Source: a virus
Taxonomy: Duplodnaviria; Caudoviricetes
Reading direction: 5' to 3' (one strand)
Virus record (IMG/VR): IMGVR_UViG_3300044970_000368
Span: 1 to 62,060 of that record
Length of the DNA stretch: 62,060 nucleotides
Below the pieces are notes generated by a model. That model was not told the DNA's origin. It saw only the letters and a list, made by a program, of their open reading frames with translations, and did not search any database. Below are positions 1,238 to 25,035 of this stretch, piece by piece; the first letter of the stretch is position 1, and each line of letters begins with the position of its first letter. A program made the translations under genes and the position numbers.

Positions 1238-2431
1238 TTAAGGAATCACACAAGGTGTCGGATTGCCATCAAATGGGCAACGCTTGTAGACAATAGCGCA
1301 CACGTTTTGTGGGCGAAGTGGCTGAATAGCGCGTTGGATTTGATAGATATGCTGACCGAAGTCACCATACAGGTTACAATCGTTGTCGCGGAAGTAAGTC
1401 CACTCCAGTTCGCCCATGGCGAGTTGAGGAGCGAATTTAAATGTGCCTTCGCCAACATAGTTTTCTGGAACAAGGCGTTTGAACGCTTCACCAGCGATAA
1501 CGAACATGACTTCGTATGGAGCGGCAACCCAAGCTGGGTTGCGGCGTTGAGCGAAACCATTCGTAACGGCAGTCGAAACGATTGGGTTGACCAGAGTCAA
1601 GACACCAGCAACGTTTGCAGTGGCGCGGAGAGGCTGTTGGTCGATACCAAAAGCGAAACCACGATAGCCCATGAATTGATAACCACTGATGGACTCTTCA
1701 CCGAGCTTGAAGCTACCAGCGGAGAGATAGAGAAGGTCTTCCTTGACATCAGCGTCATTGCGGAAGGTTTCGATCTGATCGGCAGAAGCAAGAACTTGGA
1801 AGAACTCGCCATCTTTCGTTGCGAAAGGTTCGGCAAGCATCTCTTCGCGGAGGAAAGTTCCAATGCGATAGAGGGTCTTGAAGTTCATTGGCGCATCAGG
1901 CACTTTGTTAGCAAACAAGGTGTTGATCTGCTGCATATCGCCAGTAAGGTTGTTGGCGAAAGTGTCGGTAGAATCAACAACATACTTGATACCACATTGA
2001 ATCAAATACTGATAGCGGATGTCAGCGTTGATGATCTGAAGGATCGTCTTCTCAAGCGAAACTTGAGCTTGAAGATAAGAACCTTTGAAGGCAGTGCGAG
2101 CTTGCTTGACGCAAACGCGTGGGCCTGCACCACGAAGGGTCTGAAGCTGGAACTGATATTCAGTCGAGCCAACCTGATCGGGAGTAGCACCAACGCCGCA
2201 AAGCGAAAGGTCATTCACGAAGGTAGGAGAAGCGAGCGAAGCGGCAGGAACTGCCATTTCCTCAACAACGCTACGAACAACGTCCGAAACGGAAGGCAGA
2301 GTGCCACCATCAATGGAGTTGATGTAAGGGGATTTGCGAGCAAGCACACGGGCAATTTGTCCGATGATGCGGTTTACGTCTTTGCTGGCGAAGTTTTGAA
2401 CTGTCGCCAATGGAATACAATCGTTAGGCAT
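1238..2431 (-). CDS. Major capsid protein
   Basis: 397 aa, downstream of portal and scaffold, long leader, 3' hairpin, strong codon bias. Confidence 0.75.
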   Translation of the reverse strand: MPNDCIPLATVQNFASKDVNRIIGQIARVLARKSPYINSIDGGTLPSVSDVVRSVVEEMAVPAASLASPTFVNDLSLCGVGATPDQVGSTEYQFQLQTLRGAGPRVCVKQARTAFKGSYLQAQVSLEKTILQIINADIRYQYLIQCGIKYVVDSTDTFANNLTGDMQQINTLFANKVPDAPMNFKTLYRIGTFLREEMLAEPFATKDGEFFQVLASADQIETFRNDADVKEDLLYLSAGSFKLGEESISGYQFMGYRGFAFGIDQQPLRATANVAGVLTLVNPIVSTAVTNGFAQRRNPAWVAAPYEVMFVIAGEAFKRLVPENYVGEGTFKFAPQLAMGELEWTYFRDNDCNLYGDFGQHIYQIQRAIQPLRPQNVCAIVYKRCPFDGNPTPCVIP

Positions 2432-2715
2432 AATATTTGTTTTCTAATTTAGTTTTGTTTGTGTTTTGGGTTTTTGTTCTGCTTGAACCGACCCGTTGTT
2501 TAGAAAACTTCGGGAACGACATTCAAGTTGCTGGAATACCATTTTCGTGATGTCACGAAATTGGTCATCCTGCTTTGTTTCTTGTTTGTTCGCCCCGGCA
2601 CGCTGGGCTTGTTGTGCGGCCTGTAGTGTGGATTCTTTGACTTCCACGGAGTCACCATATACGGAATGGCTCGCCGAGATATTTACGGACTGCAATATTT
2701 TTCAAAAGTTGTCAA
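2432..2715 (-). promoter_or_regulatory. Structured ~250-nt leader of the capsid gene with an upstream TTGACA
   Basis: TTGACA at 2715-2710 (no clear -10), several hairpins, A-rich tract before the ATG. Confidence 0.5.
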
Positions 2716-2747
2716 CAATAATTTTATAAAATATTTTCAAAAAATAT

Positions 2748-2776
2748 TTGACATAGAATCAATCGTCTCGTAGGTT
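2748..2776 (+). promoter_or_regulatory. Sigma70-type promoter facing against the genome's coding direction
   Basis: TTGACA-17bp-TAGGTT with AT-rich upstream sequence. Confidence 0.65.
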
Positions 2777-2782
2777 GCTTTC

Positions 2783-3273
2783 ATCTTACTTGAATCGAGC
2801 AGGGTTCAAGACGAAAAACATTTTCCCTTCTGGTAAAAATAAACCCGTCTTGGTGCTGCTCCATCAAGGCGGGTTTTTACTTGGCATGAAGCTCACGCGG
2901 TTCCCCAAAGTAGCTCGCAAAGGTGCTATATCTGTGAGCGAAATATGACAGAGACAATGGCGACGATCCCTTGGGTTTACTTGCCAAGTTTACGCACATG
3001 ACTGGAATGATGAAGCCATGCCAATCAGTCACAATTATCATATCGTTGGTTTCAACAATATGATTTTTGAATACACGCCACAGCGATGTGGGCGAAGGTG
3101 CTATTGAGGGTGAATGTTGAGTGTTGGTGCGGCCCGATAAAGACAATAGCATTTATGTCGAAATGCCATACTGCCGATTCCTATACGGAATGAGTATTGT
3201 TCAAGACACTTCATCACCATAACAGGCGAAGTGTCTCTTGCCGCCAACCTCAAGCCTTCCAGAATGAGTATTG
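2783..3273 (+). ncRNA. Candidate structured ncRNA with a 5' kissing-loop pair
   Basis: Loops GAGCAG (2797-2802) and CTGCTC (2856-2861) are exact complements. G-U pairs favour the + strand. Further stems extend to ~3240 and there is no credible ORF. Confidence 0.6.
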
Positions 3274-3849
3274 CTACATGAGTGATGCCATGATTTCAGA
3301 CTTTGGCTTATCACTTTTTTCAATGTGTCGAACTTGGTTTAGCATATCCGACAATTTGCTTTCTACTTCGAGAATTTCGGATTCAAAGCGGAGTTTGTTG
3401 TCAACAAAAAAATCTTCTTGAATAAATTTGCTCATTACGGCAGCGCAATGCTCGCGTGTTGCAAAAAACAAGTAGCATGGTTCTCCAGAAACGATGTTGA
3501 GAGTAGATTCAAATCTGACCGCATCGTGTGGAGTGAAATTGATATTGACAACATCGTAATCGCTCATCCACCCACCTCCTGCCGCATGAAGCGCAGACCA
3601 GCGGGAATATCGAGCAATAATCTGCGGGAAGACGTGTTGGTAGTCCATTGGCAAGTCAAATGACATCTTCATTATTTTCGCCATGAACTTTTGATATGCG
3701 TTGCTGGCTTGCGCGTGTGAGCGATTAAGCATCACGCAATCCCAACCATTTTTTTCCCACGATGTCTTCCAATAGTTTGCGCGAGCAAATTGCTCTGCTT
3801 GCGGCAATGTCTGGATACTTTCGTAATATGAGTAGATTTTAGGTTTCAT
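3274..3849 (-). CDS. Putative DXD-type (GT-A) glycosyltransferase
   Basis: WKTSWEKNGW and RWSALHAAGGGWMSDYDV motifs. Confidence 0.6.
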   Translation of the reverse strand: MKPKIYSYYESIQTLPQAEQFARANYWKTSWEKNGWDCVMLNRSHAQASNAYQKFMAKIMKMSFDLPMDYQHVFPQIIARYSRWSALHAAGGGWMSDYDVVNINFTPHDAVRFESTLNIVSGEPCYLFFATREHCAAVMSKFIQEDFFVDNKLRFESEILEVESKLSDMLNQVRHIEKSDKPKSEIMASLM

Positions 3850-24886: not shown

Positions 24887-25000
24887 AAGAAAAAAACCCT
24901 GTCTCAAGTGAACCTCCCGCGAGGAAACCCACGGGCATGAGACAGGGTAAATTGTTTGTGTTTTTGACATCGGGTTCAAGCGATGTGCTTCAAATGAAGC
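24887..25000 (-). promoter_or_regulatory. Structured leader of the initiator (terminator plus loop pairing)
   Basis: Loop TGAACC complements GGTTCA inside the terminator stem ACCCTGTCTCA/TGAGACAGGGT, which is followed by a T-tract. Confidence 0.65.
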
Positions 25001-25006
25001 TACACT

Positions 25007-25035
25007 ATATTAAGCGTATCGTGCGCCCTTGTAAA
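25007..25035 (-). promoter_or_regulatory. Sigma70-type promoter for the initiator leader
   Basis: TTTACA-17bp-TAATAT. Confidence 0.55.

What the first reader, a model, noticed from the sequence alone, without database searches (positions are those of the whole stretch)
2783..2880. Perfect kissing-loop RNA behind an antisense-strand promoter
Seen: TTGACA-17-TAGGTT, then hairpin CTTGAATC-[GAGCAG]-GGTTCAAG, an A-rich linker, and a 15-bp terminator-like hairpin with loop [CTGCTC] and a T-tract. The two 6-nt loops are exact complements. Three G-U pairs work only on the + strand, opposite to the genes. Inference: an attenuator switch, or an RNA that multimerises by loop-loop contacts as phi29 pRNA does.
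Basis: partly seen in the sequence, partly recalled or inferred. Interest (0 to 1): 0.75.

Follow-up and report, generated by a model that had tools for sequence, protein, structure and literature searches.

The report
Kissing-loop terminator leader of phage RNA
An uncultured phage carries a short RNA leader in which the tip of a first hairpin always matches the tip of a transcription-stop hairpin, although the letters differ from phage to phage; it most likely sets how much transcription runs on into a large folded RNA.

Summary
Promoter, hairpin 1 (loop GAGCAG), a small middle hairpin and a 15-bp terminator hairpin (loop CTGCTC, T-tract) are where stated. A covariance model found the element in 54 distinct sequences. 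They carry 27 different loop pairs, and all 27 form a 6-7 bp duplex.

It is not a free-standing antisense sRNA. In 52 of 53 cases a roughly 370-nt ornate RNA starts 3-6 nt after the T-tract on the same strand. The transcript's first 6-8 nt pair with a site inside that RNA. Relatives continue into dCMP deaminase or HNH genes.

In all 54 sequences the nascent RNA, cut after loop 2, folds best into a long helix joining loop 1 plus its 3' arm to the terminator's 5' arm plus loop 2. That helix is an antiterminator.

My best reading is a zipper-type or kissing-loop transcription attenuator. The loops change about ten times faster than their surroundings, which hints at a private, trans-acting specificity. 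There is no Rfam match and no expression data. This scan has noted similar leaders in at least 17 other phage genomes.

The parts
2748..2776 (+). Sigma-70-type promoter: -35 TTGACA (2748-2753), 17-nt spacer, -10 TAGGTT (2771-2776), preceded by an A/T-rich tract
   Evidence: Read. TTGAC is at the same position in 53 of 53 relatives with at least 45 nt upstream. The simple scan does not list it because the -10 is weak.
2782..2787 (+). Conserved 5' end of the transcript (CATCTT). It is the 5' strand of a long-range helix P0, whose partner lies at 2920-2925 inside the large RNA.
   Evidence: In 44 of 52 sequences, nt 1-2 onward pair (6-8 bp) with a site 40-49 nt into the large RNA. Matched changes occur: CATCTTT:AAAGATG, CATCTTA:TAAGATG, CATTCT:AGAATG.
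2789..2810 (+). Hairpin P1 (8 bp, one U-G) with loop L1 GAGCAG at 2797-2802. Acts as the anti-antiterminator.
   Evidence: 86.9% of cells are paired across 54 distinct sequences.
2821..2838 (+). Weak middle hairpin P2 with a pyrimidine-rich loop. It forms the apex of the zipped antiterminator.
   Evidence: for the fold. A hairpin can be drawn here in the variants, read by eye and not counted.
2841..2878 (+). Terminator hairpin P3 (15 bp, two G-U) with loop L2 CTGCTC at 2856-2861, and T-tract 2874-2878
   Evidence: On the alignment, 6 of the 13 modelled stem pairs never vary, and a U-G pair is present in 54 of 54 sequences.
2797..2861 (+). Alternative antiterminator helix: L1 (2797-2802) with L2 (2856-2861), plus 2806-2813 with 2846-2853, enclosing P2
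   Evidence: this is the minimum-energy fold of the transcript cut after L2 in 54 of 54 sequences; the L1:L2 part has changes on both sides at 7 of 7 pairs. The inner part is paired in 70% of cells, with almost no independent covariation.
2884..3255 (+). Large ornate RNA that starts right after the T-tract. It is closed by GCATGA (2884-2889) pairing with TCAAGC (3250-3255).
   Evidence: 79 predicted pairs, 31 with compensatory changes in 10 sequences. GNRA loops and invariant G-U pairs place it on the + strand. Its start motif follows the leader in 52 of 53 cases. No Rfam match.
24890..25035 (-). Second leader of the same design, ahead of the O-like replication initiator gene (ATG 24886). Parts: promoter TTTACA-17-TAATAT; hairpin with loop CTTGAACC (24980-24973); terminator (arms 24947-24938 and 24906-24897) holding GGTTCA (24914-24909); T-tract.
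   Evidence: Five distinct matched pairs in relatives.

Best explanation
The element is the 5' leader of a phage transcription unit and works as a transcription attenuator.

Host RNA polymerase starts at about 2782. Hairpin P1 folds first. If P1 persists, the terminator P3 forms and a roughly 97-nt RNA is released at the T-tract.

Alternatively, loop L1 captures the L2 sequence as it emerges. Pairing then zips on between the 3' arm of P1 and the 5' arm of P3, over the small hairpin P2. This long helix withholds the terminator's 5' arm, so the polymerase reads on.

Read-through produces a roughly 475-nt RNA: the leader plus the ornate domain 2884-3255. Its very 5' end is then tied into the ornate domain by helix P0. 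In relatives, read-through also produces mRNA for downstream genes.

Shown by comparison: the L1:L2 pairing, the P0 pairing, the conserved promoter and terminator, and the same-strand downstream RNA or genes.

Inferred: that the terminator works, that L1:L2 favours read-through rather than termination, and what tips the balance.

The loops evolve much faster than the rest. I therefore infer that the pairing is also read between molecules: released leaders acting on nascent ones. That would give each lineage a private specificity.
For: 1. The loop pairing is selected. All 27 distinct loop pairs are complementary. 7 of 7 pairs changed on both sides, and 0 of 500 shuffles reach the score.

2. It is a leader. 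TTGAC is at the -35 position in 53 of 53 relatives. The large-RNA start motif lies 3-6 nt after the T-tract in 52 of 53, which leaves no room for a second promoter. The one exception, L024, has an HNH endonuclease gene downstream on the same strand.

3. Genes follow in relatives. 12 of 42 distinct loci with at least 1 kb downstream carry a dCMP-deaminase-like ORF on the same strand after the large RNA. Pfam confirmed this for 2 of the 2 tested.

4. Read-through RNA is under selection. The transcript's 5' end pairs with a site inside the large RNA, with matched changes.

5. The antiterminator is conserved. In 54 of 54 sequences the nascent RNA cut after L2 folds best into the long helix (8-17 pairs; 12-17 in 53 of the 54), 2.8 to 12.4 kcal/mol below the fold with P1 kept in the 42 sequences where the P1 constraint applied cleanly.

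6. The terminator is canonical and frozen. 6 of 13 stem pairs are invariant and the T-tract is conserved. Arms that must pair with two partners would be expected to freeze in this way.

7. An independent second leader of the same layout precedes the replication initiator gene. It has five matched pairs in relatives, and the ATG is 4-10 nt after the T-tract in the window and in three of the four relatives whose sequence reaches it; in L123 it is about 18 nt away.

8. There are precedents for this direction of action.
   - The guanidine-IV riboswitch is proposed to use a kissing loop to give read-through (PMC11611296; one passage read).

9. Loops evolve fast. Among element pairs with at most 2 differences outside the loops, there are 0.181 differences per loop site against 0.016 elsewhere. 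In one clade the loops differ at 2-3 of 7 positions each, while 700 nt downstream differ by 13-20 positions.
Against: No transcript data exist: no RNA run was listed. Start, stop and read-through are therefore all inferred from sequence.

The inner part of the antiterminator helix has almost no covariation of its own. One of its 7 pairs changed on both sides, and 70% of cells are paired. The nested helix therefore rests mainly on L1:L2, which a plain loop-loop kiss explains equally well.

In the second leader no nested alternative is evident by inspection. There the pairing would be a pseudoknot, so a single mechanism for both leaders is an assumption.

The final fold with P1 and P3 is more stable than the antiterminator (-33.4 against -21.4 kcal/mol in the window). 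Any switch must therefore be kinetic.

No sensor is visible: no leader peptide, no known aptamer, and no antisense promoter.

The window's -10 hexamer is weak.

Because 52 of 53 leaders are joined to the large RNA and tied to it by P0, the leader could simply be a structural domain of that RNA.
Confidence: 0.55

Rival explanations
1. The loops pair between molecules and assemble the RNA into dimers, rings or cages. The RNA assembled could be the 97-nt product or the full roughly 475-nt RNA. phi29 pRNA assembles this way, as do the kissing-loop bridges of the ROOL and GOLLD phage RNAs.
For: Covariation cannot tell pairing within a molecule from pairing between molecules. In ROOL and GOLLD, loop pairings first found by covariation proved to be bridges between molecules (PMC12286853, passages read). 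The leader is joined to a large ornate phage RNA in 52 of 53 cases and tied to it by P0.
Against: The same design precedes a protein gene with no large RNA, both in the second leader and in L024. A conserved intrinsic terminator with its T-tract is not needed for assembly. There is no match to pRNA, ROOL or GOLLD models.
Confidence: 0.15
2. The loops form a fixed kiss within one molecule. It merely compacts or stabilises the leader domain or a stand-alone small RNA. The terminator gives a constant split between short and long RNA, with no regulation.
For: Both loops are displayed on stable hairpins in the lowest-energy fold. The 27-40 nt linker looks long enough to let them meet (my estimate, not computed).
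Against: This does not explain why the loops change about ten times faster than their surroundings, always with matched changes. It also does not explain why the 3' arm of P1 stays complementary to the 5' arm of the terminator in every sequence.
Confidence: 0.15
3. The signal lies in the DNA or on the other strand. Either the two loops are half-sites of an inverted repeat bound by a protein, or the hairpin is only the terminator of the - strand operon upstream.
For: 26 of the 27 loop pairs are pure Watson-Crick, so DNA symmetry is not excluded by the loops alone. The P3 hairpin on the - strand has an A/T-rich tail and could stop - strand transcription (read).
Against: An invariant U-G pair in P3 in 54 of 54 sequences, and the G-U pairs in P1, would be C-A mismatches on the - strand. 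The loops sit exactly at the tips of conserved hairpins. The promoter, P0 and the large RNA all lie on the + strand.
Confidence: 0.03

Closest known systems
Zipper-type transcription attenuator cATTpLS20 of Bacillus plasmid pLS20 (PMC13401043, NAR 2026; abstract and first part of the Discussion read)
   Same: The order of parts matches: weak upstream hairpin, central hairpin, intrinsic terminator. [quoted passage not shown] In both, the 5' part of the upstream hairpin is the most conserved stretch, and the trigger is unknown.
   Different: The pLS20 attenuator lies in a 456-nt leader ahead of the conAn antitermination genes of Gram-positive conjugative plasmids. This element is about 97 nt, lies in uncultured phages, and precedes a non-coding RNA. 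Its upstream hairpin LOOP takes part, and the loop pair is hypervariable with perfect matching. No sequence similarity was tested or is expected.
Guanidine-IV (mepA motif) riboswitch (PMC11611296, one passage read)
   Same: A kissing loop that involves the terminator hairpin is proposed to dissolve the terminator and give read-through.
   Different: In my recollection its loops are conserved because they bind guanidine. Here the loops are the most variable part, so a ligand pocket is unlikely. No Rfam match.
Satellite phage P4 immunity: CI RNA pairing with seqA and seqC (passage in PMC4825925; heteroimmune relatives recalled from my own knowledge)
   Same: A short RNA made from the leader of the unit it controls carries a sequence complementary to other sites of the same leader, and it governs premature termination ahead of replication genes. 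Matched changes would create new specificities.
   Different: P4 CI RNA is made by processing, and it promotes termination in a lysogen. Here the short RNA would be a terminated product in an apparently lytic phage, and trans action is only inferred. No match to the Rfam C4 or IsrK families.
Countertranscript attenuation and kissing control in plasmids (pT181, pIP501, ColE1 RNA I/II; own knowledge; orthogonal engineered versions in PMC3753616, search listing only)
   Same: Fully paired 6-7 nt loop-loop contacts start the interaction. The loop sequence sets the specificity or incompatibility group. The outcome is termination or read-through ahead of a replication gene.
   Different: Those regulators are transcribed from the opposite strand, so complementarity comes for free. 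Here both loops lie on one strand and must be kept matched by selection. No antisense promoter was found.
phi29 pRNA and the ROOL/GOLLD ornate phage RNAs (PMC12286853, passages read)
   Same: These are phage RNAs in which co-varying loop pairings hold copies together. The large RNAs have variable 5' parts.
   Different: No model match. This element carries a canonical terminator and also occurs ahead of protein genes. Assembly is untested.

Membership tests
Zipper-type attenuator (cATTpLS20-like) | Lies in the 5' leader between a promoter and the first downstream gene or RNA | tested here: met
   TTGAC at -35 in 53 of 53. The large RNA or a gene follows on the same strand.
Zipper-type attenuator (cATTpLS20-like) | Intrinsic terminator at the 3' end of the leader | tested here: met
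   Met by sequence only: a 13-15 bp G+C-based stem plus T-tract. Function not tested.
Zipper-type attenuator (cATTpLS20-like) | The upstream hairpin's 3' part is complementary to the terminator's 5' stem and loop, extending a central hairpin into an antiterminator | tested here: met
   Predicted in 54 of 54 nascent transcripts. The L1:L2 segment co-varies at 7 of 7 pairs. The inner segment is compatible only.
Zipper-type attenuator (cATTpLS20-like) | Switching between the two folds changes termination, as shown in vitro and in vivo for pLS20 | not testable with these tools
   Needs transcription assays.
Zipper-type attenuator (cATTpLS20-like) | Context: ahead of the conAn1/conAn2 genes of conjugative plasmids of Gram-positive bacteria | tested here: not met
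   This is a phage record. Downstream is a non-coding RNA, a dCMP deaminase or an HNH gene. It therefore works like this family but is not a homologous member.
Guanidine-IV riboswitch (mepA motif) | Match to the Rfam model; conserved loop nucleotides | tested here: not met
   No Rfam match at gathering score or at E up to 10. The loops are the most variable columns.
phi29 pRNA | Match to the Rfam pRNA model | tested here: not met
   No match.
phi29 pRNA | Loop pairing between molecules forms a ring on the packaging motor | not testable with these tools
   Covariation cannot separate pairing within a molecule from pairing between molecules.
P4 CI / C4-type immunity RNAs | Match to the Rfam C4 or IsrK families | tested here: not met
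   No match.
Countertranscript-driven attenuators (pT181 type) | Antisense promoter within the leader that produces the regulator | tested here: not met
   No - strand promoter-like site in 2300-3500 by the consensus scan. That scan is crude.
GOLLD / ROOL large RNAs (for the attached RNA) | Match to the Rfam models | tested here: not met
   No match in the window or in five relatives' loci at E up to 0.01.

The most novel reading that the evidence does not exclude
The terminated 97-nt leader is itself the regulator. Its two exposed loops let it dock on nascent copies of the same leader and block the zipper. The unit would then count its own gene dosage, as a plasmid copy-control RNA does, but using a sense-strand RNA that is its own antisense.

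Related phages in one cell would cross-repress each other, so lineages are driven to invent new matched loop pairs. That would be a phage counterpart of plasmid incompatibility groups or P4 heteroimmunity. In this phage it would act on a new ornate RNA and, through the second leader, on the replication initiator.
Probability: 0.2. Interest if true: 0.85.

Novelty: new variant of a known kind. Interest (0 to 1): 0.72.

Why it matters
Three reasons.

1. It would be a compact, protein-free transcription gate of about 97 nt. Nature has already produced at least 27 mutually distinct, perfectly matched address pairs for it. That is a ready-made set of candidate orthogonal RNA switches, and a clean system for studying how a loop contact decides between termination and read-through.

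2. It shows that a group of abundant uncultured phages places such gates ahead of a large, uncatalogued ornate RNA and ahead of the replication initiator. This makes the regulation of both testable.

3. The very fast matched evolution of the loops is a rare sign of diversifying selection on an RNA-RNA contact. It points to competition between co-infecting phages.

The same design has turned up repeatedly in this scan in unrelated phage groups. It may therefore be a widespread regulatory principle in phages. My literature searches found no description of it.

Tried and rejected
**Known families.** Rfam at gathering score over the whole window gave 0 matches. At E up to 10 over 2400-3300 it gave six weak matches, all far below threshold; the best on the + strand was Atu_C9 at 14.7 bits against the 40 needed. 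I rejected these as chance.

**Cultured relatives.** I found no DNA match in GenBank phages and no tblastn match for the capsid-like protein. The terminase gave only distant matches, at most 30% identity.

**Host.** The terminator pattern hit 5 bacterial contigs. None is the element by the covariance model (0 of 5).

**Expression.** No RNA holder was listed.

**A third co-varying partner for the loops.** Exact loop words elsewhere in the 54 loci numbered 102. I estimated by hand, not by a call, that chance would give about 80. No offset was consistent. The one candidate, about 800 nt upstream inside the capsid gene, is broken by L086. Rejected.

**Cross-talk with the second leader.** In the window, the 3' arm of P1 is complementary to the loop of the second leader at 24.9 kb. 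In the relative G001 the first leader is identical but the second leader's loop has changed. The match is therefore not maintained. Rejected.

**A coding reading.** The 57-aa + strand ORF 2775-2948 starts upstream of the conserved transcript start. Element lengths vary from 86 to 103 nt in steps that are not multiples of three. Rejected.

**The 91-aa - strand ORF 2877-3152.** It lies antisense to the ornate RNA and has no family match. It is probably spurious.

**tRNA-anticodon-like or YUNR loop motifs.** I looked at the loop lists by eye and saw no consistent pattern.

**Tool-based count for P0.** The two forms of the large RNA do not align at the site. P0 therefore rests on my script.

**Unseen supplements.** Fremin et al. 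2023 (PMC10690425, outline and abstract seen) predicted 10,006 structured RNAs in IMG/VR. Their list is in supplements I could not open, so it may include this element or the large RNA.

Full report
**What the window is.** The window is a complete virus record of 62,060 bp with direct terminal repeats. All long ORFs lie on the - strand. They include collagen-like tail fibres, a terminase, a DnaB helicase, an O-like replication initiator and a 2376-aa polyvalent protein. No cultured phage is close.

The finding lies between a 191-aa gene (3274-3849, -) and a 397-aa gene that I take to be the major capsid gene from its position and abundance. It has no family match.

**The observation.**
- TTGACA-17-TAGGTT at 2748-2776.
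- Hairpin P1 at 2789-2810 with loop GAGCAG.
- An A-rich linker that also holds a weak hairpin P2 (2821-2838).
- A 15-bp hairpin P3 at 2841-2876 with loop CTGCTC, followed by a T-tract.
- Three G-U pairs that need the + strand.

The fold is much more stable than shuffles. The consensus scanner does not accept the promoter, because its -10 is weak.

**Relatives.** The 397-aa protein has 156 relatives in viral contigs, of which 80 loci were kept. I built a covariance model from 14 hand-checked sequences. It finds the element upstream of that gene in 19 of these 80 loci.

In the seven model-negative loci that I read, the preceding gene or other sequence runs up to the capsid promoter and I saw no such RNA. 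The element is therefore an insert present in a sub-clade.

A pattern for the terminator then fetched more loci:
- 40 viral loci, all confirmed by the model.
- 60 metagenome loci, of which 46 were confirmed.
- 5 bacterial contigs, of which none was confirmed.

Together this gives 54 distinct element sequences. For the final alignment I gave the model 69 of the 88 sources with hits, leaving out those that repeated another source's hit. The number of distinct sequences stayed at 54.

**The loops.** The 54 sequences carry 27 different loop pairs. Each pair forms a contiguous duplex of 7 bp (21 pairs) or 6 bp (6 pairs), with a single G-U in all. Only 48 of 700 non-cognate combinations reach 6 bp.

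On the alignment, all seven loop-loop pairs change on both sides, with 3-4 pair types each. By contrast, 6 of the 13 terminator stem pairs never vary, and one U-G pair is present in 54 of 54. The pairing is therefore real and sits on the + strand RNA.

**What follows the terminator.** The DNA after the T-tract is not spacer. From 2884 to about 3255 it is a large structured RNA on the same strand. RNAalifold on 10 relatives gives 79 pairs, 31 of them with compensatory changes. There are GNRA tetraloops, several invariant G-U pairs, and a closing helix between 2884-2889 and 3250-3255.

Relatives carry one of two quite different interiors, forms A and B, behind the same first 30-40 nt. No Rfam family matches either form.

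The start motif of this RNA lies 3-6 nt after the leader in 52 of 53 cases, so it has no room for a promoter of its own.

The first 6-8 nt of the leader pair with a site 40-49 nt into the large RNA in 44 of 52 sequences. The changes are matched:
- Position 7 is U:A in 19 sequences, A:U in 9, and unpaired in 9.
- CATTCT pairs with AGAATG or AGGATG in six sequences.
- Two divergent sequences keep a 6-bp match with other letters.

Read-through transcripts are therefore under selection.

In other phage genomes the same unit is followed on the same strand by a dCMP deaminase gene and further on by DnaB. In L024 the leader alone precedes an HNH endonuclease gene.

**The alternative fold.** I cut each transcript just after loop 2, that is, before the 3' arm of the terminator exists. 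The best fold in 54 of 54 sequences is then one long interrupted helix. Loop 1 pairs with loop 2, the 3' arm of P1 and the next few bases pair with the 5' arm of P3, and P2 sits at the tip. That helix is an antiterminator, and P1 is its competitor.

This also explains why the stems are frozen while the loops roam. Each arm must fit two partners, whereas the loops must fit only each other. The inner segment has little covariation of its own, so this part of the model is compatible with the data rather than proven.

**A second leader.** At 24,890-25,035 on the - strand there is a promoter, then a hairpin with loop CTTGAACC, an A-rich linker, and a terminator whose interior holds GGTTCA. The initiator's ATG follows 4 nt after the T-tract.

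Relatives keep the match with five different pairs: TGAACC/GGTTCA, TAGAACC/GGTTCTA, TCAAAC/GTTTGA, TGATAC/GTATCA and TAAGAC/GTCTTA. My scan of the window for such arrangements singled out just these two elements.

**Rate of change.** Among element pairs that differ at no more than 2 positions outside the loops (15 pairs), the loops differ at 0.181 per site and the rest at 0.016 per site. That selection of pairs biases the comparison, so I also used the flanks. In the clade L088/L091/L112/L162, 700 nt downstream differ at 13-20 positions (2-3%), while each 7-nt loop differs at 2-3 positions, always matched.

L088 and L142 have identical backbones (0 of 74 differences) and two matched changes per loop. 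However, their downstream sequence differs widely, at 238 positions against 537 matches over 700 nt, so this pair is no clock for the loops.

This looks like selection for new specificities. A contact used only within one molecule would not be under such pressure.

**Comparison with what is known.** Its layout is the same as the fold found, and it has been shown by experiment to switch termination.
- The guanidine-IV riboswitch is proposed to use a kissing loop at its terminator to give read-through (PMC11611296).
- P4 immunity uses a short RNA made from the leader that it controls (PMC4825925).
- ROOL and GOLLD show that co-varying loop pairings in phage RNAs can lie between molecules (PMC12286853).

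The element matches none of these by sequence model. It shares the working principle of the first. It differs from all of them in its size, its hosts, its non-coding cargo and its hypervariable matched loops.

My literature searches found no description of such a phage leader. This scan itself has noted look-alike leaders in at least 17 other genomes. One is a near-identical copy of this very element in another genome.

**Verdict.** The attenuator reading is the best supported, at about 0.55. Assembly between molecules and a passive structural kiss remain open, at about 0.15 each. The step that decides between them is a transcription assay with loop and compensatory mutants, with and without added leader RNA.

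Noticed in passing
window 2884-3255 (+): A roughly 370-nt ornate RNA with 79 predicted pairs, 31 of them with compensatory changes, plus GNRA loops and a closing helix. Relatives carry two unrelated interiors (forms A and B) behind the same first 30-40 nt. No Rfam match. The 91-aa ORF 2877-3152 (-) that overlaps it is probably spurious.
   Followed up: partly
window 2444-2715 (-): The '83-aa ORF' ahead of the capsid-like gene looks like a structured 5' leader rather than a gene. A -35 TTGACA lies on the - strand at 2715-2710, back to back with the leader's promoter. The conserved stretch CCCGGCACG.TGG and a hairpin with loop TCCGTAT recur in distant relatives that lack the kissing-loop element.
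   Followed up: no
L085:2904-2940 (-) and L105:5628-5664 (+): Two relatives carry a match above threshold to the Rfam abiF RNA motif (44.5 bits against 37 needed). It lies on the phage gene strand, just beyond the large RNA. This could be a mimic of a host abortive-infection RNA. It is absent from this window.
   Followed up: partly
window 24890-25035 (-): A second leader in which a hairpin loop pairs with the terminator interior, directly ahead of the O-like replication initiator and DnaB. Five matched pairs occur in relatives.
   Followed up: partly
L109:4263-4652, L091:3478-3918, L024:1228-1689: The promoter-leader unit is modular. In other phages it heads a same-strand unit carrying a dCMP deaminase and later DnaB. 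In L024 it heads an HNH endonuclease gene with no large RNA.
   Followed up: partly
window 3188-3199 and 3262-3273: A 12-nt direct repeat, GAATGAGTATTG. One copy is inside the large RNA and one is at its 3' edge, next to the stop codon of the 191-aa gene.
   Followed up: no
form A large RNAs, e.g. L085 downstream of 2470: GCAGTTCC near the 5' end can pair either with GGAACTGC near the 3' end or with a local competitor hairpin (GCAGTTTC...GGAACTGC). This may be a second switch. I read it by eye.
   Followed up: no
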